Shown here in pieces: positions 4,499 through 22,278 of a DNA stretch of 64,000 nucleotides. The notes beneath the pieces are model-generated. The model ran no database searches, was not told where the DNA came from, and saw only the letters and a program-made list of their open reading frames with translations. The first letter of the stretch is position 1. Every line of letters begins with the position of its first letter. This DNA comes from an uncultured Candidatus Rokubacteria bacterium (GTDB lineage: Bacteria; Methylomirabilota; Methylomirabilia; Rokubacteriales; DASRDR01), in the NCBI GenBank assembly GCA_963708025.1, contig CAVPSB010000031.1, positions 32,001 through 96,000 on the forward strand, written 5' to 3'. A program made the translations under genes and the position numbers.

Positions 4499-5256
4499 TC
4501 AGAGCGGGCAGGCCCCGAAGTGCGTCGGCCCCTGCTTGAACAGCAGCCTGTTGGCGAGGATCTCGTCGGCGATGGCCTGGCCCACGCCGATCGCGAACCC
4601 ATTGCTGAAGCTGAAGTGGAAGCCGCCGACAACGCGCGAGAGACCAGCCTCGGCCGCGGCCGCCGAGAAGCTCGGGTACGTCCGGGGTGCGTTGGGGAGG
4701 GGTTGGGGCGGAGTGGTTGGCGTCGTGTCCGCCGTGAAGGTGAACGAGATGTTGTCATTGCAGAAGAAGCCCGCCAACGCCCGCGCGGCCGATCCACTGA
4801 ACGTGCTGTGGCCGGACCAGTACTCCGGCGACCCACCGACGCTGCCGGCGCGGGCCGTCCAGGTCGCATCCCTGTCCGTGAAGGAGTTACCGTCCGTGTC
4901 GGCCTCCCGGATCGCCGTGGTCGGCCGCCAGTGCCGGAATATGAACTTCGTCATGTACGTGGGAGCCACAGTGTCGGCCATGGCCATGCTGACCAGCGTG
5001 AAGAGCCGCGTGGCGTTGACGAGCCCCAGCTCCGGGCTCGACGAGACCGCCTCCGTGACCTGGATCCACGCCCCTGGAGGCTGGCTCGTACTCGCGCCGA
5101 GGCTCCAGAACCGGAAGGTGGCGAGCTTGCCGTCATCGGCGATGCCACCGTTGCCGAGGAGCTTGACCTCGGTGAAGGCCGCCGCGTAGTCGAGGCTCGT
5201 CAGCGCGGGCGGGCCGGTGACACTCACGTAGACGCTGGAGTCGGCGATCCCGAAGG
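4499..5256 (-). pseudogene. C-terminal part of a vanadium-dependent haloperoxidase / PAP2-like protein (5' truncated)
   Basis: Motifs KFIFRHWRP, PEYWSGH and SRVVGGFH; no start codon, and the upstream sequence is unrelated. Confidence 0.75.
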
Positions 5257-5465
5257 CGCGATCGTCGGCGCGACGTCGATGTTGCCGGAGGGAGTCTGGC
5301 TCCGCAGCCCGCTCCTGAAGTGCGGTCCGGCGGCGATCAAGGTGTTCCGTACGTTGACCCGCCCGGGCGTGCCGTGGTCGCCGCGGCGCACCCACATCCC
5401 CGTGTACGTCGTGCCCTTCACGCCCTGCAGGGTGGCCTCGGGGTCGTCGTTGTAGGCCACGAACA
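5257..5465 (-). pseudogene. fragment of an alkaline-phosphatase-superfamily phosphodiesterase
   Basis: RGDHG...VRNTLIAAGPHFRSG..SGNIDVAPTIA is typical of the C-terminal region of type I phosphodiesterases. Confidence 0.6.
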
Positions 5466-5738
5466 GGCGTCATGTTGGCGAGCCCCTCAGCCCCGGCAAG
5501 GCCCGTACCCACGTCCGATGGCGGCGAGCAGGCGAGAAGCTCAACGGCTGAGGACCGCTTTCCCGCCTGGACGCAAACGGCCTTCTGGCGTGACCGTCTG
5601 GCGAAAAGCCTACCCAAAAGCAGACCGCGTTTGCACAAACCAGAAAGGCCCTGGCGCCGTCCGCCCACTGCTGGCGCGGGCCCGCCGTCTGAAATTGGCC
5701 GACCGTACCGATCCGGCTGCCGCGACGGCGGCACCCAT

Positions 5739-5754
5739 TGGCACGAAGCTCGCA
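5739..5754 (+). promoter_or_regulatory. putative sigma-54 (-24/-12) promoter upstream of the RRE operon
   Basis: TGGCACGAAGCTCGCA versus consensus TGGCACG-N4-TTGCW (one mismatch). Confidence 0.45.
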
Positions 5755-6010
5755 CTCTAGGGTCGCGCCTTTGCAGCTGAACCCTGCGATGTGGCCCTCG
5801 CACCCACGACGAATCGTCAGCGAGGGGCGAAATAGCGGAGATTGCGCGGGGGGAGGCGCCATGACCGGCCAAGTCGGGTGTCCCTGTGATCGTGGGCCTT
5901 GGGGTCACGGAGGGCGGCATGCGGATGACCGACGGAATGGTCGAGCTCCTGGAGCAGCGGCTATGAGCAGCGGGGATTGACCGTCGAGGCTTCCTGAGAG
6001 GAGGAGTGCG

Positions 6011-6472
6011 GTGGTCACTATGCAGAGTCGGTTTCGACTGAACGAGCAAGAGGCTTCGGCGAGCTTTATTGACGGCGAGGCGATCATGATGAACATTGGC
6101 ACGGGAGTCTATTACAGTACGGATGCGGTAGGCGCGCGCATTTGGGAGCTGGCAGCAGCGGCATACAGCCCCGCCGAGATCGGAGAGATACTTGCGGGCG
6201 AGTACGAAGTGGGACCCGATCAGGCGCGCGCCGACACGCTGGAGCTCGTCGGCAAGTTTGTTGACGAGGAGCTGGTGCGTCCGGCTGACCCTGTGCGCGT
6301 TCCCGAGCTTCCTCGAACCGATTCCGCTCGCGGTAAGAAGCCATACACCCACCCAACCCTCGACATTTATCGTGAGATCGGACACTTGCTCGCCCTGGAC
6401 CCGCCAATGCCCGGCCTTGAAAACATTTCGTGGGGCGACGCGCCCGCCGGTCCGACGCAGGCGGGCAGCTGA
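6011..6472 (+). CDS. PqqD-family RiPP recognition element with a C-terminal leader-like extension
   Basis: RRE fold pattern IDGEAIMMNIGTGVYYSTDAVGARIWEL..EYEV..ARADTLELV; tail KKPYTHPTL (YxxPxL); GAGGAG RBS (start at 6011 or 6020). Confidence 0.88.
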   Translation: MVTMQSRFRLNEQEASASFIDGEAIMMNIGTGVYYSTDAVGARIWELAAAAYSPAEIGEILAGEYEVGPDQARADTLELVGKFVDEELVRPADPVRVPELPRTDSARGKKPYTHPTLDIYREIGHLLALDPPMPGLENISWGDAPAGPTQAGS

Positions 6473-6489
6473 CGAAAGGCGTACCGGGC

Positions 6490-7626
6490 GTGCAAGACAC
6501 TGCCACCCTCGTCGAACCCCTGCTCGCGGCAGAGTGGTTCGCTCACGTCGGTGCGCGTTTTGATCATGCGCAAGTTGCGCATCCGCAGGCGTTCTGCGAG
6601 AGATACTATCTTGCAGCAGGCAGGCCGATCGTAATTCGATGCGTCGGCCGCCGCTTCGCGGACCACCTGTACCGTGCGTTCGCGCACCTGGCGATCGCGC
6701 CGGTCGCCGCACCCGCGCTCACCATCGAGTTGTGGGACGAGGGCGAGACCGGAATCTCGTATCCCCTTGCCACATACCCGATTGAACCCGGATTGACGCA
6801 CAACTCGGAGGGCGAAGTCTTACGTGCGGATACAACCAGTCGTTTTTTTTGGTCTGAAAAGGAGGGCGCGGTGACGTGGCTGGACCGCAAGACGAGTCGA
6901 ATTCGCGGGTGGCGCGCCAACGGCAACCCTCCGCCGACGCACGAGCGCTCCAAGCCCATGACTTTTTTATTGTCGCTGTGGCTGTACGATCGGGACATTC
7001 ACGTATTGCACGCGGGAATGACAGCACGCGGCGAAAGAGGCGTCTTGATCGCCGGGGGCAGCGGCATTGGCAAGACCACTACGGCGCTCTCTTGCCTGAT
7101 CGGCGGATTTGACTATTTGTCAGACGATCAAATTGCGGTAGAGCAAGTGTCGAGTGAATCCACCGGGGGTGCGCCCGTTCCAACCGATACGGTGATCGCG
7201 CATAGTCTCTTTCACAGCGCACGCCTCGAACCTGCCCACCTGGCCAACTTTCCTGCCCTCCAACCCCACGCCATACCGAGCACGGATGCGTTTCATCAAA
7301 AATTCCTGGTCCTCTTGGCTGAACTGTTCCCGGAACGGATCCGGCGGCGCGCCGTGATTTGTGCGCTCGTGCTGCCCCGAGTGGGATCAAGTGCGGAAAC
7401 ACGGTTCCGGCAAGCCCGGCGCGTCGAGGCGTTTACATATATGGCGCGGACGTCGCTGTTGACACCTCTCGGAGCGGGACGGCGGCGATTCGAGCGGGTA
7501 AATCAGCTCCTCGCCCGCGTACCCTGTTACTGGCTCGAGTTGGGTCACGATTTGACAACTATTCCGGCGGCGCTCGACCGGATCTTGAGCGAGAGCGTAC
7601 CGCCTGCCGGGCAAGGCGCCGAATGA
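6490..7626 (+). CDS. HPr-kinase-like P-loop serine kinase
   Basis: LHAG...GVLIAGGSGIGKTT (Walker A)...YLSDD; likely GTG start at 6490. Confidence 0.82.
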   Translation: MQDTATLVEPLLAAEWFAHVGARFDHAQVAHPQAFCERYYLAAGRPIVIRCVGRRFADHLYRAFAHLAIAPVAAPALTIELWDEGETGISYPLATYPIEPGLTHNSEGEVLRADTTSRFFWSEKEGAVTWLDRKTSRIRGWRANGNPPPTHERSKPMTFLLSLWLYDRDIHVLHAGMTARGERGVLIAGGSGIGKTTTALSCLIGGFDYLSDDQIAVEQVSSESTGGAPVPTDTVIAHSLFHSARLEPAHLANFPALQPHAIPSTDAFHQKFLVLLAELFPERIRRRAVICALVLPRVGSSAETRFRQARRVEAFTYMARTSLLTPLGAGRRRFERVNQLLARVPCYWLELGHDLTTIPAALDRILSESVPPAGQGAE

Positions 7627-8321
7627 ATCCCCTCGTCAGCTGCATCGTGGCGGTTTACAACGGCGAGCGATTCCTGGCAGAGACGCTCGAGAGCATTTTC
7701 GCTCAGACGTACGAGCCGCTGGAAGTGCTCGTCGTAGATGATGGTTCGACCGACCGTACGCGCGAGGTGGTGGAGCGGTGGGGCGCGCGCATCCGATACA
7801 TCTGGCAGGAAAATGCCGGGCCGGTCAAAGCACGCAACAAGGGAATCGCCGCCGCGCAGGGGGACTTGATCGCCTTTACAGATGCGGATGACCTTTGGCT
7901 TCCGGACAAGACGGCGCGCCAGGTAGCGCGCCTCGTCTCGCCGCCGGTCATCGGCGGGAGCGTGACGCTGATCCAGAATTTTTGGATGGATGAGCTTGAA
8001 CACGAGCGGGAGCAGCTCAAGAATCACCCGCGCGCCCAACCGCTGCCGGGGTATGTTGTTCAGACCCTCATGGTCCACCGGAGGACCTTTGACCGGCTTG
8101 GCTTGTTTGATACCACACTGATCCATGCGTCCGAATTGGACTGGTTCCTCCGCGCGGAACAAGCCGGAGAGGTTATCGAACTGCTGTCCGAGGTGCTGGT
8201 CCGCCGTCGAATGCACTTGAACAGCATGACCCGCCAGGGCGGAGACCGCAGCCGCAAGGAGCATTTGCGTGTGCTCAAGCGCCACCGGGACCGGCAGCGC
8301 GTGCGCCGGGACGAGGGATGA
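7623..8321 (+). CDS. glycosyltransferase family 2
   Basis: VSCIVAVYNGERFL, VVDDGSTD, ARNKG and FTDADD motifs; ATGA overlap with the kinase gene. Confidence 0.93.
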   Translation: MNPLVSCIVAVYNGERFLAETLESIFAQTYEPLEVLVVDDGSTDRTREVVERWGARIRYIWQENAGPVKARNKGIAAAQGDLIAFTDADDLWLPDKTARQVARLVSPPVIGGSVTLIQNFWMDELEHEREQLKNHPRAQPLPGYVVQTLMVHRRTFDRLGLFDTTLIHASELDWFLRAEQAGEVIELLSEVLVRRRMHLNSMTRQGGDRSRKEHLRVLKRHRDRQRVRRDEG

Positions 8322-9466
8322 AGGCCCTTCTCTGGACCGAAAAGTTCTACCCCGCGCTCGGCGGCGCCGAGCACGGTGCCCTTCAATTGATTCAGGCGCT
8401 GCGAGCGCGCGGTCATGTTTTCGCGGTTGTCACCACTCACTTTGACCCGAGCTTGCCCCAGGTCGAGGTCCATTCAGGAGTTCTCATTCGCCGGTTCAAT
8501 CTCCACGCTTCAATCGCCGCGGGAGATCTTTCTCAAATAGTTCGAGAGCGGCAGCGTGTGGCCGGGTTCAAGCGCGAGTTCGCCCCCGATCTCGACCACA
8601 TTTTCGGAATCAGAGCACTGGGGGTTTTTTATTTACACACCCGCGCGTCCTTTCCTGCGCCCCTACTTGTCTCGCTGCGGAACAGTATCTCGGAATTCCG
8701 GGGCGCGCTAAGCGAGGACAGTGTGCCACGCGCAGTGCTGGCAAGCGCCGATTGGGTCACCACGCTCGTGCGGCAAGATATTGATCCCCTCCTCAACCTG
8801 CTGCCGCAACTGGCCCGGCGAATTTCCTATATCACGAATGCGATCCAACCGCTCGCTCTCAACCCCGTACCTCTGCCGGAGACGCCGCGCCTGCTGTGCG
8901 TGGCGCGCTTGGCAGAGCAAAAGCGGCTCGACCTCTTGCTCCGTGCCTTTGCTGAGGTGATTCTGTCCGCTCCGCGTGCGACCCTGACGATCGCGGGCGA
9001 CGGGCCCGACCGCCCGCAGCTGGAACGGCAGGTCGCCGAGCTTGGATTAGCGAGCTCGGTCCAATTCCTCGGCTGGGTTCCTCCCCCCGAAATTCCGAAT
9101 CTCATTAACTCGGCGACTTGTCTCGTGCTGGCGTCCGATCGCGAAGGCATCCCACGGGTCGGATTGGAGGCGGCCGCGCTCGAACGGCCGTTGATCGCTA
9201 CGCGAGTGGGCGGCGTGCCGGATTTCGTTGTGGACGGGGAGACAGGGCTGTTGACGCCGCCCGGCGATGTCAGCGCGCTTGCCCGCGCGATCACTTTTAT
9301 GCTCAGTCACCCGGAGCGCGCGGCCGCGATGGGGCTTGCGGCGCGAACAAGAGCGCAAGAACATTTTCGCTTTGAGCAGGTAGCAGATGCATTTGACACG
9401 CTCTACCGGCAGCTAGCTCGAGCCGAGCCGACGAGGGAAAATGAATGTCTTGTTTTGGACCAGTAA
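8318..9466 (+). CDS. glycosyltransferase family 4
   Basis: FYPALGGAE, ARLAEQK, EGIPRVGLEAAA and TRVGGVPDFV motifs. Confidence 0.93.
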   Translation: MKALLWTEKFYPALGGAEHGALQLIQALRARGHVFAVVTTHFDPSLPQVEVHSGVLIRRFNLHASIAAGDLSQIVRERQRVAGFKREFAPDLDHIFGIRALGVFYLHTRASFPAPLLVSLRNSISEFRGALSEDSVPRAVLASADWVTTLVRQDIDPLLNLLPQLARRISYITNAIQPLALNPVPLPETPRLLCVARLAEQKRLDLLLRAFAEVILSAPRATLTIAGDGPDRPQLERQVAELGLASSVQFLGWVPPPEIPNLINSATCLVLASDREGIPRVGLEAAALERPLIATRVGGVPDFVVDGETGLLTPPGDVSALARAITFMLSHPERAAAMGLAARTRAQEHFRFEQVADAFDTLYRQLARAEPTRENECLVLDQ

Positions 9467-10553
9467 TTTTCCGCCCTCGATCGGGGGTGTGCAAACGGTC
9501 GCGGCGGAGCTGCTGCCGGCTCTGCGAGCTCGCGGCCACGAGCTGACGGTAATTACGACGCACGTCAATTACACTCTGCCCGACGAAACGACCTTTGAAG
9601 GAATTCCCGTTCACCGTTTGCACTTTTTGGCCGCGCTGAACACATGGGATGGACGATCGGTCCTCCAGGTGGGCCGTCGCGCGGCAAGCCTTGTCCGCCG
9701 GATCGCACCCGATGTGCTCCACCTGTTTGGGATCGGGGCGACCGACGTGTTCTTTATTATGGCGCGCAAGAATCTCCCCGCGCCGACGCTGGTCACTTTG
9801 CAGAATGAAAACTCGAAATTACTGCGCGAGCACAAGCATCCCTCGCACCTGTCCAGCGTACTCGCGTATGCGGACCGTGTTACGACCGTTGCCCGCGTCG
9901 AGGTAGAACGGCTCGCCCAGCTCGAGCCCCGGCTGGAAGGACGGGTCTCTTATATCTACAACACACTCAAGCCGCCTGCAGTCGAGCCGGCGCCCCTCCC
10001 GGCGGCGCCGCGCCTGCTGGCATTGGGTCGGCTTGTGCCTCAAAAGTCATTTGAGGTTGCTCTATGCGCGTTCGCGCGCGTTGCTCCAACCTATCCGGAT
10101 GCGCGTTTGATCGTCGCCGGAGACGGACCCGAGCGCACCAAGTTAGAGAACCTCGCTGCGGAATTAGGGATAGAAAATGCGATAGAGTTCAGGGGTTGGG
10201 TGCAGCCCGAGGAGGTCCCCGCCTTGATCAATCAAGTCACGGCCGTCGTCCTGCCTTCGCAGCTCGAAGGGCTGCCGCTGGTCGGGATCGAGGCTGCCCA
10301 GCTGCGGCGGGCCTTGCTTGCGACGCGCGTAGGGGGACTGCCCGAGCTGGTGCTGGATGGTGAAACGGGCTTTTTGTCAGAGCCGGGGGATGTTGCCGCG
10401 CTGGCGGCGGCAATGGACGTCGTGCTGGCGAACCCGGAGCGCGCGCGGGCCATGGGCCTGGCGGCACAACAGCACGCCCTCGAGGTCTTTTCCTTTGATG
10501 GCATGGTGGACGCGTATGATCAGCTCTACCGCGAGCTAGGCACTCGCGCGTAG
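9441..10553 (+). CDS. glycosyltransferase family 4
   Basis: FPPSIGGVQ, GRLVPQK and EGLPLVGIEAA motifs. Confidence 0.93.
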   Translation: MNVLFWTSNFPPSIGGVQTVAAELLPALRARGHELTVITTHVNYTLPDETTFEGIPVHRLHFLAALNTWDGRSVLQVGRRAASLVRRIAPDVLHLFGIGATDVFFIMARKNLPAPTLVTLQNENSKLLREHKHPSHLSSVLAYADRVTTVARVEVERLAQLEPRLEGRVSYIYNTLKPPAVEPAPLPAAPRLLALGRLVPQKSFEVALCAFARVAPTYPDARLIVAGDGPERTKLENLAAELGIENAIEFRGWVQPEEVPALINQVTAVVLPSQLEGLPLVGIEAAQLRRALLATRVGGLPELVLDGETGFLSEPGDVAALAAAMDVVLANPERARAMGLAAQQHALEVFSFDGMVDAYDQLYRELGTRA

Positions 10554-10567
10554 AACTTGTCGGTCGC

Positions 10568-11677
10568 ATGCGCATTCTATTCTGGGTGGATGCTTTCTAT
10601 CCGGGGATCGGAGGAGTGCAGGTCCTCGGGACTGCGCTCGTGCGTGCCCTGCGGCGACAGGGGCACGAACTCCTCGTCTTCGGCGGACCGTACCTGTCCG
10701 ACCGCGCCGATCCGGATGTGTTTGATGGAATTCCGCTGTATCGGTTTCCATTCGAGTACCTCGTACACCCTCATTCGCCGGAGATGATTGGGCGGATCAA
10801 GCGAGAGCTGGCCGGTTTGCTCCACGCGTTCAAGCCGGACCTGGCTCACATCTTTCACGCGTCTACGGGGTTTGTTCTTTATCTTGAATCCGCGAACGCC
10901 GCGCCTGCGCCAACACTCTTGACCCTGCACGGAAATCCCCTCAACGCGACGCCGCCGATCAACGCTGCACGCCGGCGCTTGCTTCGCGAGGTGGATTGGA
11001 TTGCATGCTGCTCCGAGGCGCTGCGCGCCGAGATGGTCCAGCTCGTCCCCGAGATCTGGGATCACTGCTCGACCGTTTTGAATTCTCTCGAGATGCCTCG
11101 GGAACGACCCGAACCTTTACCAATTGCCGAGCCGCGGATTGCCTGCATCGGACGACTGGATCCGCAAAAAGGATTTGATTTCGCGCTGGACGCCTTTGCG
11201 CTCGTCGCGTCCAAGTTCCCGCGCGCCAGACTGGTCGTCGCAGGGGACGGACCCGAACGCGCAGCGCTGGAAGCGCAAGCTGATCGGCGGGGGATTCAAG
11301 AACAGGTAGATTTCTGTGGTTGGTTCCCTCCGCCACGTGTCCCAGATCTTCTGAATCAAGCCGCGCTCGTCCTCATGCCTTCGCGATTCGAGCCGTTCGG
11401 GTTGGTCGCGCTCCAGGCGGCGCAAATGGGGCGTCCGGTAATCGCGTCCCGGGTCGGAGGGCTGCCCGAAGTAGTCGTGGACGGGGAGACGGGGCTCTTG
11501 GTAGACCCTGAAAATGTCCCCCTGCTCGCGCAGGCTATCGAGTCGCTCCTCGCGCAACCGGACCGCTCCGTCGAGATGGGGGCGCAAGCACGCGCGCACG
11601 CCGAGAGGAACTTTTCCTGGGACCGCTTTGTCGGACACTATGAGATGCTATACAAAAGGCTCACTCTCTCCCTCTGA
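10568..11677 (+). CDS. glycosyltransferase family 4
   Basis: FYPGIGGVQ, GRLDPQKG and EPFGLVALQAA motifs. Confidence 0.93.
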   Translation: MRILFWVDAFYPGIGGVQVLGTALVRALRRQGHELLVFGGPYLSDRADPDVFDGIPLYRFPFEYLVHPHSPEMIGRIKRELAGLLHAFKPDLAHIFHASTGFVLYLESANAAPAPTLLTLHGNPLNATPPINAARRRLLREVDWIACCSEALRAEMVQLVPEIWDHCSTVLNSLEMPRERPEPLPIAEPRIACIGRLDPQKGFDFALDAFALVASKFPRARLVVAGDGPERAALEAQADRRGIQEQVDFCGWFPPPRVPDLLNQAALVLMPSRFEPFGLVALQAAQMGRPVIASRVGGLPEVVVDGETGLLVDPENVPLLAQAIESLLAQPDRSVEMGAQARAHAERNFSWDRFVGHYEMLYKRLTLSL

Positions 11678-12798
11678 TGTCAACTCTTGACGGCGCGGGC
11701 GCTGTCCCTCTGGCAAATGCGCTCGCGCAGTTATTGCCCACGGCGGACGAGACTTTGTTTCTGCGGGCATGCGTTGACCGGGGCCCGGCCGGCGCGTCGG
11801 CCTGGCGCACGTGGCGCTCGCGGCACTCGCTTGCCGCTGAGCTGGAACGCGGGCGCGGCGCGTTCAAGCATCTGGTCCCTGTGTTAGCTTTTGCGCTCGA
11901 ACAGAGTCGAGCCGATCTCGAACCGTCCGATTTGCCCGTGCTCCGCGCCGCGCGCTTGCGCGAAGGGCTGCGCAGTCAGAAGTACTGCGAAATCCTACTG
12001 GAAGCGCTCGCGGGGCTCGGACCAAGTCCGGATGCACTGCTGCTCAAAGGGGAGGTACTCTCTCAAACCGTCTATCCTGCCGCGGGCTTGCGGCACTCGC
12101 ATGATATTGACGTCCTGATCCGAGGGTCAGATTTGGAACGGGCGGTTGCGGCGTTGAGGCGTTCTCGATTTCAACCGCAAGGCGAAGCATACCGGCAGAG
12201 CGCGGACGATCGCACGCTGGTCCATTCGAGCGGCCTGCCCCTTGAACTGCATACATCGCTCTTTGCGCAACCCACAGGGACATCCTTTACAGAGCAAGCG
12301 CGGGCGCGCCGCGTTCAAGCGGTTATTGAGACGGGTGGGGAGGGTCGCCGTGAGACCCGCGTGCAGACCCTCGCGCGTCCGGATGCCCTGGTGCACGTGC
12401 TTGGACACGGGTTCGATGCGGGGCCGCGCGGGTCATTGATGTGGGTGAGCGACGCGTATTTCTTGATTCACAACACGCCCGCGTTGGATTGGGGCGAGGT
12501 GTCGGCCGGCGCGGTCCGGGCGCAACGAGGACTCGCACTGTACTTGACGCTGCGCTATCTCCGGTCCGGGCTCGATGTGCCTGTGCCTGTAGAGACAATC
12601 GGACAATTACAATCCGCGGCACAGGATGCCTCGTATGTAGAGTATGGGCGGGCGTTGTCGGTGCTGCGGCGTAGTGGGCGAGGTGGATATCGCCGGCTGC
12701 TCGCGCAGACCGGCAGCGTCCGCGAAGGCGTGATTCTGGCGCGGTGGATGGTCCGGCGTCGCAACCTGGCCGCGGTCCGGGCGCGCTGGGGTTTGTAA
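11677..12798 (+). CDS. uncharacterised nucleotidyltransferase family protein (NTP_transf_5-like)
   Basis: LLKG..L...YP..GLR...DIDVL and LELH motifs. Confidence 0.82.
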   Translation: MSTLDGAGAVPLANALAQLLPTADETLFLRACVDRGPAGASAWRTWRSRHSLAAELERGRGAFKHLVPVLAFALEQSRADLEPSDLPVLRAARLREGLRSQKYCEILLEALAGLGPSPDALLLKGEVLSQTVYPAAGLRHSHDIDVLIRGSDLERAVAALRRSRFQPQGEAYRQSADDRTLVHSSGLPLELHTSLFAQPTGTSFTEQARARRVQAVIETGGEGRRETRVQTLARPDALVHVLGHGFDAGPRGSLMWVSDAYFLIHNTPALDWGEVSAGAVRAQRGLALYLTLRYLRSGLDVPVPVETIGQLQSAAQDASYVEYGRALSVLRRSGRGGYRRLLAQTGSVREGVILARWMVRRRNLAAVRARWGL

Positions 12799-12980
12799 AG
12801 ATGAGTTACCTAATGATGGTCCTGTAGGGCGCAAGAACCGCATCACGCTGCGTGCTCATAGACACAACATCGATGCTGACGGCAATCAGTTCGACTTCAC
12901 AGTGGCTCTCGGCGGGAGCACGGTCGGCTATCGCACCCCTAGCCGGACCGGCGCAGCTCACCCAGCGTGCGGGGCCTGAC

Positions 12981-13129
12981 GGGATCGGACATTCGGGCCT
13001 CCTCCGGCGCCCCGGTCGGGGGCGCTCGCCTCCATCCTACTCCACCAGTCCGGTAGAATGGCGCGCGAGGAGGCGGGGACGATGACGGCGTGGACGATCC
13101 TCGTGATGGCGAGCCTGTGCGAGGTGGTG
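12981..13129 (+). repeat. direct-repeat copy of the promoter and first 16 codons of the SMR gene at 35069-35218
   Basis: Near-identical sequence including CCACCAGTCCGGTAGAATGGCGCGCGAGGAGGCGGGGACGATGACGGCGTGGACGATCCT. Confidence 0.92.
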
Positions 13130-13287
13130 TCGACGTGCTGGCGTGCCCTCGCTGTGGCGGGCGGCTGCGCGTGATCGCCACGGTCGAGGACCCGCTCGCG
13201 GTACGCCAGATCCTCGCCGCCCGGCGTCCGGCCGAGACGCTCAGGCCTGGCCGCCGGCCCCGGCCGGGGCCCCGCCATCGCACCTGA
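13127..13287 (+). mobile_element. IS91-family-like transposase 3' remnant
   Basis: VDVLACPRCGGRLRVIATVEDPLAVRQIL resembles the C-terminal CPxCGG tail of IS91-type transposases. Confidence 0.65.
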
Positions 13288-13565: not shown

Positions 13566-15392
13566 ATGAATCCGACCACGAGGAAGACCCCTCGGGCGCT
13601 CGAACGGCAGGCCGCGGCGATCCGCCGCCTCGAGGTCCGCGCCCAGCGACCGAGCAGACGGGAGCTCCTGCGGGCGGGAGCCCTCACGGCCGGGGCCGCT
13701 CTGATGTCGCCGGCGCTCGCGGCGGCTCTGGCACCGCCCAAGACCGTGGCCCGCAACCGGACGCTGGTCGTGGTGTGGGGAGGCCGCGAAGGGCGGTGGG
13801 TGGACCACGAGCTGTGGAACCCCTACGCCGTCGGGTCCAATCACCAGAACGGACCCGGCCTCCTCTACGAGCCCCTGGCGTACTACAGCGCGTTCGCGGA
13901 CAAGCAGCACCCCTGGCTGGCCTCGAGCCACCGCTACAGCCTCGACGCCCGGGAGCTGACCATCAAGACCCGGCCCGGCATCAGGTGGAGCGACGGCGCA
14001 CCATTCGGCGCGGACGACGTGGCCTACACCCTGAACAGCCTCCGCGACCTTGGCCCCAAGGTGAGATGGGGCGTCGACGTCCAGCAGTTCATGCAGGAGG
14101 CCCGGGCCACGGATGCGAGCACGGTCGTGGTCCGGTTCAAGGTACCGGCGCCTCGGTTCTTCCACTTCCTGACTTACAAGTACGACATCGGCGTCTACGT
14201 CGTGCCGAAGCACATCTTCCAGGGCCAGGACTGGACCACGTTCAAGCACTTCGATCCGGACAAGGGCTGGCCGGTCACCACCGGCCCCTGGAAGGTGGCC
14301 TTTGCCTCGCCTCAGCAGAAGGTGCTCGACCGGCGAGACGAATGGTGGGCGGCGAAGGCCGGTCTCGCGCCGATGCCCAGGGTCGAGCGCAACGTCTGGC
14401 TCCCGTCTGCCGGCGAGCAGACGGTCGCGCAGGCGCTCATCACGAACCAGATCGACACCGCCATGTCCATGCAACCCAGCACCATCCAGACCATCTTCCG
14501 GCAGAATCCCCGGATCATCACCCACACGGGCGAGAAGCTGCCCTATGGCTACATGGATTGGTGGCCGTATTCCCTGTACGTGAACAACGAGCGGCCGCCG
14601 TTCGACGACAAGGACGTCCGGTGGGCGCTCAGCTACTTCATCGACCGGCAGCGGGTCGTCGAGGTCAGCTTTGCCGGGGCCGCGGAGCCGTCGCCCCTTC
14701 CAATGCCCTCCTACCCGGCGCTGCGTCCCTACATCGACTCGGTCAGGGATCTCCTGGCGAAGCACGACACGCTGGAGTTCAGTCCCAAGAAGGGCGAGGA
14801 GATTCTCGTCAGGAAAGGCTGGAAGAGAGACGGCGTGGGCTTCTGGGAAGACGCCCGGGGCAACCGCCTCACCCTGGATATCATCGGATTCGGGGCGAGT
14901 GGCCCCGCGACGGGGCCCGTGGTGGCGGAGCTGCTGAGGCGCCAGGGCGTTGACGCCCGGTTCAGCCTGCCGCCGGATTTCGACGACCGCTTCCAGAAGG
15001 GTCACTACGCCGGCGCGATCTACGGGCACGGCGGGAGCGTGAACGACCCGTACCACACCCTCCGGCTCTACCAGAGCTCAACCGTGGCGGTGCCGGGCGG
15101 CCACCTCGTCAACTTTTCCCGCTGGAAGAACGCAGCTTACGACAAGATCGTGGACGAGGTGTTCGTCACCAGCATGAGCGACAGGACGAAGCTCACAGAG
15201 CTGTTCCGCAGGGCCATGGAGATCTGGATTCCCGAGCTGCCCGACATCCCGCTGACGTACAACTACCACCGTATCCCGATGAATACGAGCTACTGGACGA
15301 ACTGGCCGACCGAGCAGAACCCCTACGTCAACGGCGCGTCCTGGCACTTGACGTTCGCCATGGTGCTCTGGAGTCTCCAGCCGACCCAGTAG
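13566..15392 (+). CDS. ABC transporter substrate-binding protein, family 5 (Tat-like signal), no adjacent permease
   Basis: SRRELL twin-arginine; motifs RWSDGAPFGADDVAYT and PPFDDKDVRWAL. Confidence 0.9.
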   Translation: MNPTTRKTPRALERQAAAIRRLEVRAQRPSRRELLRAGALTAGAALMSPALAAALAPPKTVARNRTLVVVWGGREGRWVDHELWNPYAVGSNHQNGPGLLYEPLAYYSAFADKQHPWLASSHRYSLDARELTIKTRPGIRWSDGAPFGADDVAYTLNSLRDLGPKVRWGVDVQQFMQEARATDASTVVVRFKVPAPRFFHFLTYKYDIGVYVVPKHIFQGQDWTTFKHFDPDKGWPVTTGPWKVAFASPQQKVLDRRDEWWAAKAGLAPMPRVERNVWLPSAGEQTVAQALITNQIDTAMSMQPSTIQTIFRQNPRIITHTGEKLPYGYMDWWPYSLYVNNERPPFDDKDVRWALSYFIDRQRVVEVSFAGAAEPSPLPMPSYPALRPYIDSVRDLLAKHDTLEFSPKKGEEILVRKGWKRDGVGFWEDARGNRLTLDIIGFGASGPATGPVVAELLRRQGVDARFSLPPDFDDRFQKGHYAGAIYGHGGSVNDPYHTLRLYQSSTVAVPGGHLVNFSRWKNAAYDKIVDEVFVTSMSDRTKLTELFRRAMEIWIPELPDIPLTYNYHRIPMNTSYWTNWPTEQNPYVNGASWHLTFAMVLWSLQPTQ

Positions 15393-15456
15393 CCGCATCG
15401 CGCAGGTCCACCCGCGCCATGCCGCACCGAAGACACGGTCACTCCGTGCCAGCCGC

Positions 15457-17125
15457 TCATCCTGCCTCCACCGGGACGCCCACCTCCACGCCGCGCGCCC
15501 GCAGCTCCCGCGTCGCGGCGACGAGGTCGGGCCACGCGCGGAGTAGCGCCCCGTAGCCGCGCACGAGCTGCTGGGCGAACACCTGCGCCTCGTCCAGGGT
15601 CCGCTGGCCGGGCGCCGCACCCGGGCCGCCGTAGTGCCGTCCCTCGGGCCCCGCGACCTGGCGGCTGACCACCAGGTCGCGGGGGACGAAGAAGGCGTCG
15701 GTCCGCAGCGCGTCGCGCACGGCGGCCACATGCTGCCGGACGTCCTGGGCCCAGTACGCGGGGGCGTCTCCGTGCTCGCGAAGCAACGCCTCCAGGTGCT
15801 CCAGGTAGCGGGCCTTCTGCGCGAGGAATCGGGTACGGACGAACGTCCGGAAGTCGGGGACCGGCAACTCGCCCAGGGACACGAGGTGGGCACCCAGCGA
15901 GCGCAAGCGTCCCTCGGCATCCGCGCCAGGCGGCGGGGCGTACGAGCGGACGCAGTGGACCATCAGCTCCCCGCTGCGGATCCACGCGGCGGTGCGGGAG
16001 ATGTCCTCGCGGGACCATCGGCGGCCCTCGTCGCTGTCGTGGAGTGCGGCCCAGGGAAGGTGGGCGAAGTAGGCGTCCTCGAAGCACGTGCGCAGCGCGA
16101 TCCGGAAGACGCCGTCCTCGTAGCGCTGGACGGGCATGAAGGGCGGCAAAGGAACGCGGTTGTCGAGGCCGAGCAGGGTGGCCTGGCAGAATCGCCCGTC
16201 GGTGATGGTAGGCCGCGGCACCACGCGCAGCACCTGGCGCGACGCGCAGGCACTCAGGTACGCGGCTTCGGTGCTGGTGAAGCGCTCCCGCGATCCGCCC
16301 GTGAGCAAAAGGAGCCACGTCGGCGAGTACCAGCCGATGTCACCGAACAGGCCGGTGAACGTGATTCGCACCTGGCCGCCGCGGGCGACCACGCGGTCCA
16401 GGAGCTCCGGCGCCCAGCGATCCAGTACGAGGGGCTCGCCCGGAGACCCCCGACAGGCACGCTCCCAGGTCGCGGCCCAGCAAGGGCTCGTGCAGGGCGA
16501 GCGCGTCCATGTCTTCGCAGTGGATCGCGCGCTCCAGCACGGCGCGGTCGCCGAAGAACCAGAAGTCGGCCGGGTTGTAGTTCCCGTAGCCGTCTCCGCG
16601 GCCGGAGAAGAGCTCCAGCCCCCGTGTGCGCGCAGGGGATGGGGCGAGCGCACAGACCACGTCGTCGTCCACGCTCAGGAACGGCTCCCCCGCGTTGGCG
16701 AGCAGGAGCGCGTTCCGGTTCGCCCCCGCCGCGAATCCGCAGCCCATCACGTCCAGCACCCCGAAGCGGGCCACGTCAGGATCGATTCCCAGGCGCGCCA
16801 GCCGGTCCACGAACGTCTCGCGCTCGCGCGGGCCCAGGTAGCGGATCTCCAGTGGGTCCGGGTCCGCCGCACGTAGCGCCGCCAACGCCTCCCGGCACGC
16901 GGCCTGCGTGGTCGGGGCCTCCGAGTTGTCCGCCACGACGAAGCGCGGGCGCCGCCCGTGCCGCCGGGCGTTCTCTCGGAAACTGGCGAGCGCGCGGGTC
17001 ACGCTCCCGACGCGATCGCGGGTGAGCAGCCCAACCACGGACAGGGGTGGCAACGGCTCCGCGGGGCCGATCTGGGCCTCCAGGCGCGTCCGGACTTCCG
17101 CCGCCGTCACCCCGCCTACCCTCAT
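15457..17125 (-). pseudogene. GT-A-fold-like hypothetical protein split by a frameshift near 16445
   Basis: N-terminal half (TRDR, VVADNS, GANRNALLL, SVDDD) continues in another frame (GLDNR..LPPFMP..RYEDGVF); the switch lies at a G5 run. Confidence 0.6.
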
Positions 17126-17427
17126 GCGATCGCCCCGGTCATGGCGTAGTCCGGACGTGTCACCGGCTCCGCTCGGACACCTTCCCGGCCGGACCCAAGG
17201 TCATGGCCTCAGGACGCTGCTCATCGAGAGCGCCAGGCGCGATCCCACTCGGCACGCGCGAGGCGAAAGAAGCGGAGCCCACCATGCACCGCATTCTACT
17301 CCGGCGCCGCGTGCAGGGTCGAGGCTGAGCCGCGCCTTCACGGGAATGGACACCGGAGCCGGCGGTGGTGTTCCAACCGCCAAGGCGCGGCGGGTTGGTA
17401 CGACAGGTGCTGTATAGTTGGGGCACG

Positions 17428-18426
17428 TTGAACAGCTACTTCCTGGGCGTCGATGTCGGCGCAACCAAGACCCACGCCTTGCTGGCGGAGGCGTCCGGAA
17501 CGGTCGTCGGCTGCGGCGAGGCCGGTCCGGGAAACCCGTTCCACGTGGGCCACGACGGCCTGCTCCGAGCGATCGCGAGCGCGGTGGAGCAGACGCTCCA
17601 GAGCGCAAGGGTCTCGAAAGCGAGGGTCCGAGGCGCCGGCTTCGGCATCGCCGGCTACAACTGGCCGTCCGAGCACCCCGCCTTGTCACGGACCGTCCAG
17701 GCTCTCGGACTCTCGGCCCCCGTGCACATCGTCAACGACGCGATCATCGGCCTGCTCGCGGGCGCTCCGGCGGGTTGGGGGATCGGACTCGTTGCGGGGA
17801 CCCATTGCAACTGTCGCGGCTGGGATCGCGAGCGGCGAGAGGGCCGTGTCATCGGCTTCAAGATGGGCGAAGCGGCCGGCGCCAAGGCCCTCGTCCAGCA
17901 GGCGGTCTATGCGGTCGCCCGACACTACACGCGCCGCGGCCCGGAGACCGGTCTCACCGCCGCCTTCGTCGGCGCCGTACGGGCTCGCGGCGTCGACGAC
18001 TTGCTCGAAGGGCTGACCTCGGGCCGCTATGCGCTGACCGCGTCCGCGGCGCCGATCGTGTTCGCCGAGGCGGAGCGCGGGGATCCGGTGGCGGGGGAGC
18101 TGATTCGGTGGGCGGGTCGGGAGCTCGGCAGCCTGGCCACCGGTGTCGTCCGACAGCTTGGTCTGGAGGCGGCGGCGTTCGACCTGGTCCTCATCGGCAG
18201 CCTCTTCAGGGGCGGCCCGCGCCTGATCCAGGCCGTCGAGAAGGCCGTTCGCCCGGTCGCCGCACACGCTCGCCTCGTCAGGCTGAAGGCCCCGCCGGTC
18301 GTGGGCGGGGTGTTGTTGGCGATGGAACAGACTGCCTTCGAGCGCGATCGCGTCCACGAAGCCCTCGTCAGCGGCAGTCTCGCATTCGCCGCGCGCGAGC
18401 CCGCGCCGCCGAGCAGCCACGGTTAG
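17428..18426 (+). CDS. BadF/BadG/BcrA/BcrD-type ATPase (N-acetylglucosamine-kinase-like)
   Basis: LGVDVGATKT, FGIAG, VNDA and LVAGT motifs; TTG start shortly after TATAGT. Confidence 0.85.
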   Translation: MNSYFLGVDVGATKTHALLAEASGTVVGCGEAGPGNPFHVGHDGLLRAIASAVEQTLQSARVSKARVRGAGFGIAGYNWPSEHPALSRTVQALGLSAPVHIVNDAIIGLLAGAPAGWGIGLVAGTHCNCRGWDRERREGRVIGFKMGEAAGAKALVQQAVYAVARHYTRRGPETGLTAAFVGAVRARGVDDLLEGLTSGRYALTASAAPIVFAEAERGDPVAGELIRWAGRELGSLATGVVRQLGLEAAAFDLVLIGSLFRGGPRLIQAVEKAVRPVAAHARLVRLKAPPVVGGVLLAMEQTAFERDRVHEALVSGSLAFAAREPAPPSSHG

Positions 18427-18436
18427 CGGTGTAAGC

Positions 18437-20212: not shown

Positions 20213-20678
20213 CACAGTATCGGCCTGCGTTCCGGCATCGGTTGCTCTCGCGCGCCTGATTCTCGGGTGCGCGGCGGGGAAGACCAACACGGTCGTCACG
20301 CGGGAGCTCACGTGACGAAGCAAACCGTGGTGAAGTGGCGGAGCCGGTTTGTCCCGAAGTGACTCTTCCGGCGTACCGGCGCCCGCATGCCGGCCGCGGC
20401 GGGCGCTGCCCGTTGCCGTCTCTCCCGCCAAGTGTCGCAGCCAGGTGCCACGACCTTGACACCGCCCGCGCCGGTCGCGCAGCATCGGAGCGGAGGGGGC
20501 TTTGTCCGCCAGCCCCCCTGGGGGGACGGCCGAGAATGGGCCTTCATGTCGCCTAGCCTCACCTCAGGAAGAAGTTCGGGGCGATCTACCGGGGCGAGCG
20601 GAGGCGGATTGTCCCGGCGGCAGGCGGGAATGGACGGCGCGGCCGGTCGAGCCGGTCGAAGCGCCAGGGAGGTCGATC

Positions 20679-22229: not shown

Positions 22230-22232
22230 TCG

Positions 22233-22270
22233 TCGGAGGGGGCTACCGGATCGGACGGAGCCCCCTCCGA
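22233..22270. repeat. intercistronic inverted repeat with a 12-bp stem
   Basis: TCGGAGGGGGCT...AGCCCCCTCCGA. Confidence 0.8.
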
Positions 22271-22278
22271 GCCTCCCC

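What the first reader, a model, noticed from the sequence alone, without database searches (positions are those of the whole stretch)
6011..6472. RRE carrying its own lasso-type leader motif (possible RRE-precursor fusion)
Seen: after a ~90-aa RRE and a Pro-rich linker comes KKPYTHPTLDIYREIGHLLALDPPMPGLENISWGDAPAGPTQAGS, with YxxPxL at 6344-6361. Known: YxxPxL is the motif that lasso B1/RRE proteins bind in leader peptides. Inference: the tail folds back into its own RRE cleft, making the protein both chaperone and precursor, or a self-occupied scaffold that recruits the kinase. This would explain the absence of a separate precursor gene.
Basis: partly seen in the sequence, partly recalled or inferred. 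Interest (0 to 1): 0.8.

Follow-up and report, generated by a model that had tools for sequence, protein, structure and literature searches.

The report
RRE protein carrying its own leader
This small protein joins a peptide-binding chaperone domain to a tail that looks like the peptide it should bind, and it heads a widespread, unstudied operon of a kinase and sugar-adding enzymes.

Summary
ORF 6011-6472 (+, 153 aa) is a PqqD/RRE domain (aa 23-89), a Pro-rich linker, and a tail with YTHPTL at 6344-6361.

- **Conservation.** The tail is the best-conserved part of a large family: 666 hits at 90% clustering, 365 representatives for the tail alone, many phyla. Of 178 distinct tails, 174 have Tyr, 176 have Pro, and all have Asp/Glu exactly 18 residues after the aromatic.
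- **Docking.** AlphaFold2 places residues 111-120 with pLDDT 96 on an RRE whose nearest solved relatives are lasso B1 proteins bound to leader peptides.
- **Kinase binding.** A controlled complex prediction supports binding of the neighbouring HprK-like kinase to the RRE sheet plus the docked tail (0.64 against 0.00 for controls).
- **Operon.** It is RRE-tail, kinase, GT2, three GT4 genes and an NTP_transf_5 gene. I found no lasso cyclase, B2 peptidase or signal-peptidase-like protease nearby, and no separate precursor in 78 related loci or in the genome.
- **Closest known.** The Bacillota LPP system of 2026, which uses a separate precursor.
- **Limit.** A conventional fused precursor is not supported. 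There is no conserved Ser/Thr acceptor, and Asp130 occupies the position of the LPP phospho-serine.

Best reading: a self-liganded RRE adaptor, a new variant of a known kind.

The parts
6011..6472 (+). RRE-tail protein (153 aa, GTG start, stop included)
   Evidence: The N-terminus matches the family consensus.
6077..6277 (+). PqqD/RRE winged-helix domain, aa 23-89. The folded domain spans about aa 8-91.
   Evidence: Pfam PF05402 51.4 bits. AF2 pLDDT at least 92 for aa 1-90. Foldseek top hits are TbiB1 and TfuB1 leader complexes.
6278..6340 (+). Variable Pro-rich linker, aa 90-110
   Evidence: Unconserved in A1 and A2. pLDDT about 72-74.
6344..6361 (+). YTHPTL, the leader-type YxxPxL motif (Y112, P115, L117)
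   Evidence: Y in 174 of 178 and P in 176 of 178 distinct tails. Residues 111-120 have pLDDT 96.
6362..6418 (+). Most conserved block, aa 118-136 (DIYREIGHLLALDPPMPGL). It includes strand 118-120 and predicted helix 123-129.
   Evidence: Invariant L126-P132 and P134. Residues 118, 120, 122, 123 and 126 lie in the predicted kinase interface.
6398..6400 (+). Asp130 codon. An acidic residue is always found 18 residues after the motif aromatic.
   Evidence: D in 174 and E in 4 of 178. The offset equals Tyr(-16) to phospho-Ser3 in LppA (PMC13381572 sections 6 and 7).
6419..6469 (+). Variable, disordered C-terminus, aa 137-153 (W141 conserved only in the close family)
   Evidence: pLDDT 52 or less. 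Length after DPP is 6-28 residues, with no conserved residue.
6490..7626 (+). HprK-like P-loop kinase (378 aa from GTG 6490; the longest ORF starts at 6430)
   Evidence: Hpr_kinase_C 28 bits, HprK_rel_A 37 bits, both below cut-off. H174, G189, G194, K195 and D213 are invariant in 46 homologues. Predicted to bind the RRE-tail protein.
7623..8321 (+). GT2 glycosyltransferase. Its ATG overlaps the kinase stop (ATGA).
   Evidence: Glycos_transf_2 119 bits. Start. Found in 43 of 44 related loci with at least 6 kb on both sides.
8318..9466 (+). GT4 glycosyltransferase 1. Its ATG overlaps the GT2 stop.
9441..10553 (+). GT4 glycosyltransferase 2
10568..11677 (+). GT4 glycosyltransferase 3
11677..12798 (+). 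NTP_transf_5 protein (PsmN/LppN type). Its ATG overlaps the GT4 stop.
   Evidence: PF14907 87.8 bits. Overlap. Found in 38 of 44 loci.

Best explanation
The protein is a self-liganded RRE adaptor. Its C-terminal tail carries a lasso/LPP-type leader motif (YxxPxL). This motif folds back, in cis or possibly in trans between copies, into the protein's own leader-binding cleft and adds a strand to the RRE sheet. The resulting RRE-plus-leader surface recruits the HprK-like kinase encoded next door. It probably also recruits the NTP_transf_5 and GT2 enzymes of the same tightly coupled operon. The invariant block that follows (DMGDLLALDPPxPGL) is not needed for RRE docking. I infer that it is the part presented to those enzymes.

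The cassette is a relative of the lasso-tailoring and LPP 'RRE + kinase + NTP-transferase' module that has dispensed with a separate precursor gene and a leader peptidase.

What is shown:
- the domain content
- conservation of the tail
- the fixed Tyr-to-Asp spacing
- the gene neighbourhood
- no separate precursor found

What is predicted:
- docking of the tail
- binding of the kinase

What is inferred:
- what is finally phosphorylated or glycosylated: the protein's own tail or linker, or a substrate encoded elsewhere
For: 1. Anatomy: PqqD aa 23-89 plus tail.
2. The tail is the most conserved part of the family.
3. The family is large: 666 hits of 811 candidates, mostly 144-157 aa, covering 83-100% of the query.
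4. AF2 with 121 sequences gives pLDDT 96 for residues 111-120 and a strand at 118-120. The linker is at 72-74 and the end is below 52.
5. The nearest solved structures are lasso B1 proteins in complex with leaders: 5v1v/5v1u at E 6e-6 and 6jx3 at 3e-4. By sequence they are TbiB1 4.9e-17, PbaB1 5.4e-13, LppB 3.7e-8 and TfuB1 9.3e-6.
6. In that alignment D75, Y65 and D38 sit at LppB D70, Y60 and N33. The paper shows that D70 and N33 capture the leader Tyr and Pro (PMC13381572 sections 8 and 10, read). D75 together with Y112 occurs in 289 of 306 distinct sequences.
7. Complex prediction of kinase plus ATP plus RRE-tail protein: scores 0.63, 0.69 and 0.64, best of 3 controls 0.00.
   - The mark was reached by 116 of 157 solved complexes and 2 of 215 mismatched pairs. 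These counts hold only roughly, because my own alignments and a riding ligand were used.
   - The runs agree in at least 39% of contacts, and the partner's pLDDT is at least 74.
   - The interface joins kinase residues 310-342 to RRE residues 16-38 and tail residues 118, 120, 122, 123 and 126.
   - I know of no solved RRE-kinase complex (recalled).
8. Fusion is the rule. In 78 loci plus the window, 81 ORFs carry both RRE and tail, 1 significant tail-only hit looks like a broken copy, and 1 is RRE-only.
9. In the whole 8.17-Mb genome the tail HMM finds only the 3 fused copies.
10. No conserved small-ORF family exists in the loci.
11. Neighbourhood in the 44 loci with at least 6 kb on both sides: GT2 43, NTP_transf_5 38, HprK-like 37, GT4 29, ABC exporter 10.
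12. Precedent for the partners:
   - BsfB1 strongly boosts BsfK (PMC10368454, passages).
   - LppK needs the LPP context, and LppB is insoluble without its leader (PMC13381572 sections 7 and 8).
   - PsmN adds hexose to the kinase-made phosphate (PMC6993621, passages).
Against: - I could not see model coordinates. Docking in the cleft rests on pLDDT, DSSP and the interface list, not on measured Tyr112-Asp75 contacts.
- The most conserved block (LLALDPPxP) has only pLDDT 64 or lower and is not explained by RRE docking.
- The confident kinase interface names neither the P-loop nor Asp130.
- The kinase is missing within 9 kb in 6 of 40 loci. It is missing altogether in L009 and in the genome's second copy, so kinase recruitment cannot be the only role.
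- The two tails with Trp instead of Tyr keep Asp75, so there is no compensatory signal.
- 41 of the best 150 tail-profile hits show no RRE. They look like N-truncated calls or chimeras, but I could not inspect their contigs.
Confidence: 0.55

Rival explanations
1. True RRE-precursor fusion. The protein is itself the substrate. After self-docking, its tail, linker or variable C-terminus is phosphorylated by the kinase, receives sugar through NTP_transf_5, and is extended by the GT2 and GT4 enzymes. The result is a self-chaperoned phosphoglycosylated protein or peptide.
For: - No separate precursor was found in 78 loci or in the genome.
- The layout of a conserved leader-like block followed by a variable C-terminus is the pattern described for LppA precursors (PMC13381572 section 6).
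- L009 carries three copies with identical tails, each followed by its own GT2. This resembles multi-copy precursors.
- None of the gene families shared by 4 or more loci that I annotated is a priming phosphoglycosyltransferase, flippase or polymerase, so the sugars may need a non-lipid acceptor.
- The island in the window holds 4 GTs and nothing else.
Against: - No Ser/Thr is conserved anywhere in the tail.
- 23 of 178 tails have no Ser/Thr after DPP, and the C-terminal residue is Ser in only 23 of 178.
- LppK did not accept Thr or Tyr in place of Ser (PMC13381572 section 7).
- No leader peptidase is present.
- The invariance of LLALDPPxP across phyla is unlike a typical RiPP core.
Confidence: 0.3
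2. The tail is a docking motif for a partner enzyme (GT2, NTP_transf_5 or kinase) and does not occupy the RRE cleft. The RRE then binds a different peptide encoded elsewhere.
For: - The strongest conservation lies downstream of YxxPxL.
- GT2 is the most constant neighbour, in 43 of 44 loci.
- Residues 121-136 are modelled with low confidence in the monomer.
Against: - pLDDT is 96 for residues 111-120 in a monomer model.
- Tyr and Pro are conserved with lasso/LPP leader spacing, and the Tyr-binding Asp75 is conserved.
- No other YxxP peptide family was found.
Confidence: 0.1
3. Canonical split lasso B1 whose partner genes lie elsewhere, or an assembly or frameshift artefact that fuses B1 to a precursor gene.
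For: - The best NCBIfam hit is lasso_PqqD_Bac.
- The closest structures are lasso B1 proteins.
Against: - The score of 49.1 bits is below the cut-off of 80.
- The only Transglut_core3 match in the genome is on another contig, and none of 5 Asn_synthase matches is on this contig.
- The same fusion is seen in 81 ORFs from many phyla, which rules out an artefact.
Confidence: 0.03

Closest known systems
LPP (linear polyphosphorylated peptide) clusters of Bacillota: LppB RRE, LppK HprK-like kinase, LppN NTP-transferase, LppS, LppD, LppA (PMC13381572, Nat Commun 2026; sections 6, 7, 8 and 12 and passages read)
   Same: - A discrete lasso-type RRE with an HprK-like kinase and an uncharacterised NTP-transferase.
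- No lasso cyclase.
- Embedded among glycosyltransferase genes.
- A Tyr-type YxxPx[L/V] recognition motif.
- The RRE keeps the Tyr-holding Asp (LppB D70 corresponds to D75 here).
- An MsbA-like exporter is present in some related loci (10 of 44).
   Different: - Here the motif is the C-terminal tail of the RRE itself, not a separate precursor.
- There is no SpI-like leader peptidase.
- Asp/Glu replaces the phosphorylated Ser at Tyr+18.
- The block after the motif is different and far more conserved.
- The family lives in Gram-negative and candidate phyla, not Bacillota.
- By sequence the RRE is closer to TbiB1 than to LppB.
Lasso peptide B1 proteins bound to leader peptides (TbiB1 5v1v/5v1u, TfuB1 6jx3, PbaB1 9x90)
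   Same: - Same fold, at 26-29% identity.
- The same YxxPxL ligand motif, which is known to be read by B1 proteins (PMC10368454 passages).
   Different: - The ligand is in cis.
- There is no B2 peptidase, no cyclase and no core peptide with a ring-forming Asp/Glu context.
- The NCBIfam lasso B1 models score below their cut-offs.
Phosphorylating and glycosylating lasso tailoring pairs (PadeK/BsfK/PsmK kinases, PsmN/BsfN NTP-transferases)
   Same: - The same two enzyme families stand next to an RRE.
- The RRE stimulates the kinase (PMC10368454).
- The NTP-transferase adds hexose to the phosphate (PMC6993621).
   Different: - Those enzymes act on a C-terminal Ser of a separate precursor.
- Here no conserved Ser exists, and up to four classical GTs are added.
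Engineered leader-fused RiPP enzymes
   Same: A leader supplied in cis occupies the recognition site and makes the machinery independent of a leader on the substrate.
   Different: Those are laboratory constructs. This would be a natural, ancient and widespread case, and on a stand-alone RRE.

Membership tests
PqqD / RiPP recognition element (Pfam PF05402) | Domain model scored above the gathering threshold | tested here: met
   51.4 bits against 23.4, aa 23-89
PqqD / RiPP recognition element (Pfam PF05402) | Winged-helix fold with a three-stranded sheet and three helices, as in solved RRE-leader complexes | tested here: met
   AF2 pLDDT at least 92 for aa 1-90. Foldseek TMt 0.83-0.88 to 5v1v, 5v1u and 6jx3.
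PqqD / RiPP recognition element (Pfam PF05402) | Leader-capturing residues (LppB D70, Y60, N33 equivalents) | tested here: met
   D75, Y65 and D38 align to them. Their roles are taken from PMC13381572 sections 8 and 10. D38 is Asp, as in TbiB1, rather than Asn.
Lasso peptide B1 chaperone (NCBIfam NF033536 / NF033530) | Model score above the curated cut-off | tested here: not met
   49.1 against 80, and 22.5 against 70
Lasso peptide B1 chaperone (NCBIfam NF033536 / NF033530) | B2 transglutaminase-like leader peptidase in the cluster | tested here: not met
   The genome's single PF13471 match is on contig C25, not on the window's contig.
Lasso peptide B1 chaperone (NCBIfam NF033536 / NF033530) | Asn-synthetase-like lasso cyclase in the cluster | tested here: not met
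   5 PF00733 matches in the genome, none on C31. In 6 related loci an AsnB with a full GATase domain occurs.
Lasso peptide B1 chaperone (NCBIfam NF033536 / NF033530) | Separate precursor peptide with leader and core | tested here: not met
   None found with the tail HMM, by motif, or by small-ORF clustering. A fast-evolving peptide could escape these searches.
LPP clusters (PMC13381572) | Discrete RRE + HprK-like kinase + NTP-transferase without a cyclase | tested here: met
LPP clusters (PMC13381572) | Archaeal-type signal peptidase I (LppS) as leader peptidase | tested here: not met
   TIGR02228 gives one sub-threshold match in the genome, on contig C38. Among the gene families shared by 4 or more related loci I annotated 12, and none is a peptidase. 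The rest I left unannotated as antisense or alternative-frame shadows of known genes.
LPP clusters (PMC13381572) | Separate precursor with YxxPxVLxHQxIxFETxxS and a phosphorylated Ser at Tyr+18 | tested here: not met
   The motif is fused to the RRE. Position Tyr+18 is Asp in 174 and Glu in 4 of 178 tails.
LPP clusters (PMC13381572) | Polyphosphorylation of the peptide by the kinase | not testable with these tools
   Needs mass spectrometry.
HPr-rel-A system (NCBIfam TIGR04352 kinase, TIGR04353 PqqD) | Both models above their cut-offs | tested here: not met
   Kinase 37 bits against 200. TIGR04353 gives no hit at E up to 1 for the window protein.

The most novel reading that the evidence does not exclude
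The RRE protein is a self-priming carrier. Its own docked pseudo-leader places the invariant Asp130 where LPP precursors place the Ser that LppK polyphosphorylates, exactly 18 residues after the Tyr. The kinase is known in relatives to add phosphate onto phosphate. Here it would make an acyl-phosphate on Asp130, or the Asp would mimic a phospho-Ser. NTP_transf_5 and the GT2 and GT4 enzymes would then build a glycan on the protein, without a lipid carrier or a separate precursor. That would be a protein-anchored phosphoglycan made by RiPP-type recognition.
Probability: 0.1. Interest if true: 0.85.

Novelty: new variant of a known kind. Interest (0 to 1): 0.62.

Why it matters
RREs are the common handle by which RiPP enzymes find their substrates, and they are always described as binding a separate precursor. 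A natural, ancient and widespread family with the recognition motif built into the RRE itself would be new. It spans Gemmatimonadota, Acidobacteriota, Planctomycetota, Chloroflexota, Thermotogota, NC10 and others. It would be either the first natural RRE-precursor fusion or a natural 'leader in cis' switch that frees the enzymes from leader-bearing substrates.

It also extends the kinase and NTP-transferase chemistry just described for Bacillota LPPs to glycosyltransferase islands of many uncultured Gram-negative lineages. Finally, it gives a small soluble protein on which that chemistry, whose end products are still unknown, could be tested directly.

Tried and rejected
- **C-terminal Ser as acceptor.** I first thought the tail ended in a kinase-acceptor Ser, as in paeninodin and pseudomycoidin, because the window protein ends in Ser. 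I rejected this: only 23 of 178 tails end in Ser.
- **Separate precursor.** I looked four ways and found none:
  - The tail HMM over six frames of 78 loci plus the window gave 1 significant tail-only hit, apparently a broken copy in L009.
  - The tail HMM over the whole genome gave only the 3 fused copies.
  - A motif scan around the operon found nothing. The same scan around the tail-less PqqD on C25 found nothing convincing.
  - Clustering 12,423 small frames outside conserved genes gave a largest cross-locus cluster (8 loci) that is the antisense shadow of the RRE gene.
- **Stand-alone tail peptides in 1.84 billion representatives.** Of the best 150 hits, 84 are full fusions, 25 are N-truncated fusions, and 41 have no detectable RRE. 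Of those 41, those I read start inside helix 3 or the linker, or are chimeras (tally for all 150).
- **Tyr/Trp against Asp75 covariation.** There is no signal, with only 2 Trp cases and both keeping Asp.
- **Anti-phage defence.** PADLOC gave 0 hits for 7 proteins.
- **Curated NCBIfam families.** None is reached.
- **IS91-like remnant at 13090-13287.** This was a recalled resemblance; Pfam finds nothing.
- **Literature.** Full-text searches turned up no description of an RRE with a built-in leader motif. In the LPP paper the 12 shown of the places holding its 18 uses of 'fused' or 'fusion' all concern laboratory tags or cloning. Its supplementary data were not opened and might list related clusters.

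Full report
**The sequence**

- Pfam places a PqqD/RRE domain at aa 23-89, at 51.4 bits against a cut-off of 23.4.
- A Pro-rich linker (aa 90-110) follows, and then the tail.
- Y112 to L117 lies at 6344-6361.

The gene opens a tightly coupled operon:

| Gene | Coordinates | Note |
|---|---|---|
| HprK-like kinase | probably 6490-7626 | |
| GT2 | 7623-8321 | ATGA overlap with the kinase stop |
| GT4 (three genes) | 8318-11677 | |
| NTP_transf_5 | 11677-12798 | |

The operon is an island of 62% G+C in a 70% G+C genome, with third-position G+C of 0.68-0.71 against about 0.9 in the flanking genes.

**Is the motif more than chance?**

Alone, it is not. The loose pattern occurs 15 times in six frames of the surrounding 8.6 kb. 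Conservation decides the matter.
- A protein search returned 666 relatives among 811 candidates. The listed ones are mostly 144-157 aa and cover 83-100% of the query, so nearly all have the tail.
- In alignments of 33 and 121 members the tail is the best-conserved part. L126, L127, A128, L129, D130, P131, P132 and P134 are invariant. Y112, P115, L117, Y120, R121, M123, G135, L136 and W141 are at least 90% conserved.
- A scan of one genome per species gave 78 loci, all from metagenome-assembled genomes. They include Gemmatimonadota, Acidobacteriota, Planctomycetota, Chloroflexota, Bacteroidota, Thermotogota, Bipolaricaulota, Methylomirabilis, Binatia and several proteobacterial classes.
- Over 178 distinct tails from both sets, the aromatic is Y in 174, F in 2 and W in 2. 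The Pro is kept in 176. An acidic residue (D 174, E 4) always stands exactly 18 residues after the aromatic.
- What follows DPP is 6-28 residues of variable sequence.

**Does the tail dock?**

- AlphaFold2 with the 121-sequence alignment gives a mean pLDDT of 82.4. By segment: at least 92 for residues 1-90, 72-74 for the linker, 96 for residues 111-120, 64 for 121-130 (a short helix at 123-129), and below 52 afterwards. DSSP assigns a strand at 118-120.
- Such confidence for ten residues beyond a floppy linker means the model packs them on the domain.
- The closest solved structures are lasso B1 proteins crystallised with their leader peptides: TbiB1 (5v1v/5v1u, E 6e-6, 26-29% identity) and TfuB1 (6jx3).
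- By sequence profile the order is TbiB1 4.9e-17, PbaB1 (9x90) 5.4e-13, LppB (9x8z) 3.7e-8 and TfuB1 9.3e-6.
- In that alignment the family's Y65, D75 and D38 fall on LppB Y60, D70 and N33.
- The 2026 paper on these structures shows that D70 hydrogen-bonds the leader Tyr and N33 fixes the kink at the leader Pro, and that mutating either weakens binding (PMC13381572, sections 8 and 10, read).
- D75 together with Y112 occurs in 289 of 306 distinct family sequences.

So the cleft is intact, and the only conserved YxxP ligand in sight is the protein's own tail. I could not read coordinates, so the Tyr-in-pocket geometry is inferred.

**Is there a separate precursor?**

I found none.
- A tail HMM over all six frames of the 78 loci and the window finds 81 ORFs with both RRE and tail. 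One significant tail-only hit lies just upstream of a full copy in L009 and looks broken. One ORF is RRE-only.
- Over the whole 8.17-Mb genome the tail HMM finds only three fused copies: the window's and two on contig C49. These are 38-40% identical to each other.
- Clustering 12,423 short frames outside conserved genes gave no cross-locus family other than antisense shadows.
- A tail-only profile run against 1.84 billion representatives found 365 proteins at E up to 0.001.
  - Of the best 150, 84 are full fusions and 25 are fusions truncated at the N-terminus. The other 41 show no RRE.
  - The ones I read begin inside the last RRE helix or the linker, or are chimeras with a neighbouring GT or an adaptor artefact.
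  - The continuous series of lengths points to fragmentary gene calls, but I could not inspect the contigs.

**The neighbourhood**

| Gene family | Of 78 loci, many cut short | Of 44 loci with at least 6 kb on both sides |
|---|---|---|
| GT2 | 70 | 43 |
| HprK-like kinase | 60 | 37 |
| NTP_transf_5 | 57 | 38 |
| GT4 | 47 | 29 |
| MsbA-type ABC exporter | not counted | 10 |

- Occasional extras are an AsnB with a complete glutamine-amidotransferase domain, epimerases, an HD protein, a sulfotransferase, a GT10, a GlcNAc 2-epimerase and an ABC-2 transporter.
- In the window's genome the only lasso-B2-type domain is on another contig. None of the five Asn-synthase matches is on this contig. No archaeal-type signal peptidase passes its cut-off.
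- No curated NCBIfam model is reached. The best are lasso_PqqD_Bac at 49 bits against 80 and HprK_rel_A at 37 bits against 200.

**The kinase**

- In 46 homologues of the kinase, H174, G189, G194, K195 and D213 are invariant. This is the pattern of active HprK-like peptide kinases (motif as described for BsfK in PMC10368454).
- I folded the kinase with ATP and the RRE-tail protein as partner. Scores were 0.63, 0.69 and 0.64 (median 0.64), against 0.00 for the best of three controls.
- That mark was reached by 116 of 157 solved complexes and 2 of 215 mismatched pairs in the tool's calibration. The calibration holds only roughly here, because my own alignments and a ligand were used.
- The runs agree in at least 39% of contacts, and the partner's pLDDT is at least 74.
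- The confident interface joins kinase residues 310-342 to the RRE sheet (residues 16-38) and to tail residues 118, 120, 122, 123 and 126. The kinase is therefore modelled on the composite surface formed by the RRE and its docked tail.
- I know of no solved RRE-kinase complex (recalled), so a pass from memory seems unlikely.
- The interface names neither the P-loop nor Asp130.

**What is known**

- YxxPxL at positions -17 to -12 is the B1-binding motif of lasso leaders, and the RRE BsfB1 greatly accelerates the kinase BsfK (PMC10368454, passages).
- PsmK phosphorylates the C-terminal Ser of pseudomycoidin, and the NTP-transferase-fold PsmN adds hexose to that phosphate (PMC6993621, passages).
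- Most relevant is Popov et al. 2026, which described LPPs in Bacillota (PMC13381572, sections 6, 7, 8 and 12).
  - These clusters hold an RRE (LppB), an HprK-like kinase, an NTP-transferase, an archaeal-type signal peptidase and an MsbA-like pump.
  - They often lie inside capsule loci rich in glycosyltransferases.
  - They act on a separate precursor with the motif YxxPxVLxHQxIxFETxxS.
  - The kinase polyphosphorylates Ser3 of the core, which is 18 residues after Tyr(-16).
  - The final product and the biological role are unknown.
  - LppB is insoluble without its leader.
  - The C-terminal half of the leader does not touch the RRE and is proposed to address the enzymes.

**Reading**

The window's operon is the same kind of module, but without the peptidase and the separate precursor and with the recognition motif moved onto the RRE.

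The best-supported mechanism is a self-liganded RRE adaptor. The tail's YxxPxL fills the cleft, and the composite surface binds the kinase. The invariant DMGDLLALDPPxPGL block, which docking does not need, is offered to the kinase, the NTP-transferase or the GTs.

- No hydroxyl residue is conserved in the tail.
- 23 of 178 tails have no Ser/Thr after DPP.
- Only 23 of 178 end in Ser.

The invariant acidic residue stands at precisely the offset of the LPP phospho-Ser. This could mean a phosphomimic, an acyl-phosphate acceptor, or a coincidence of spacing. I mark it as an observation with speculative meaning.

Against kinase recruitment as the whole story:
- The kinase is missing within 9 kb in 6 of 40 loci.
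- It is missing in L009, which has three copies each followed by a GT2.
- It is missing in the genome's second copy.
- GT2 is the most faithful neighbour.

**Verdict**

The 'lasso' label does not hold. Self-docking and kinase recruitment are supported by controlled predictions, and the precursor role is unproven. Seven full-text searches found no description of an RRE with a built-in leader motif. The supplements of the LPP paper were not opened. I file it as a new variant of a known kind.

Noticed in passing
window 6000-12800: The seven-gene operon is a low-G+C island: 61-64% against about 70% in the flanks, and third-position G+C of 0.68-0.71 against about 0.9 in neighbouring genes. This suggests horizontal acquisition.
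   Followed up: partly
own genome, contig C25 about 15200-23800 (L085): A tail-less PqqD (106 aa) sits with a Gluconate_2-dh3 subunit, a GMC oxidoreductase, an HprK-like kinase, an NTP_transf_5 gene and the genome's only lasso-B2-type Transglut_core3 domain. There is no lasso cyclase nearby. GT2 and GT4 genes run divergently. No precursor was found by motif scan.
   Followed up: partly
own genome, contig C49 about 221200-226600 (L084): The third RRE-tail copy lies in GT2, RRE-tail, GT2, GT4, HprK-like, then a small radical SAM/SPASM protein (297 aa). The last is a typical peptide maturase.
   Followed up: no
own genome, contig C49 about 201300-208000 (L083): The second RRE-tail copy is flanked by two NTP_transf_5 genes, two GT4 genes and a GT2 gene. 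No HprK-like kinase was among the neighbours scanned.
   Followed up: no
L009:4560-13033: Three RRE-tail genes with identical tails lie within 8.5 kb, each followed by a GT2 (two of them also by a GT4). A fourth, broken tail remnant lies at 9595-9924. No kinase or NTP_transf_5 is present in the 20 kb held.
   Followed up: partly
L030, L048, L053 (Bipolaricaulota and Thermotogota loci; L032, Bipolaricaulis, shares the Glu but its short contig holds none of these genes): These versions have Glu instead of Asp at position 130 (LLALEPP). They also carry two HprK-like genes in tandem and an 807-aa protein with two NTP_transf_5 domains.
   Followed up: no
window 8318-11677: The three GT4 proteins also pass Pfam PF20706, 'GT4 in conflict systems' (33-77 bits against a cut-off of 26). 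PADLOC finds no defence family in any of the seven operon proteins.
   Followed up: yes
window 13090-13287 (+): A 65-aa ORF with a CPRCGG motif sits at the island's right edge. It reminded me of the C-terminal end of IS91-type transposases (recalled). Pfam gives no hit, so this is unconfirmed.
   Followed up: partly
window 4499-6712 (-): A 737-aa ORF runs antisense across the RRE gene. Only its C-terminal part (about 4499-5200) looks real, as a PAP2 phosphatase at 33 bits. The rest is a high-G+C shadow frame.
   Followed up: partly
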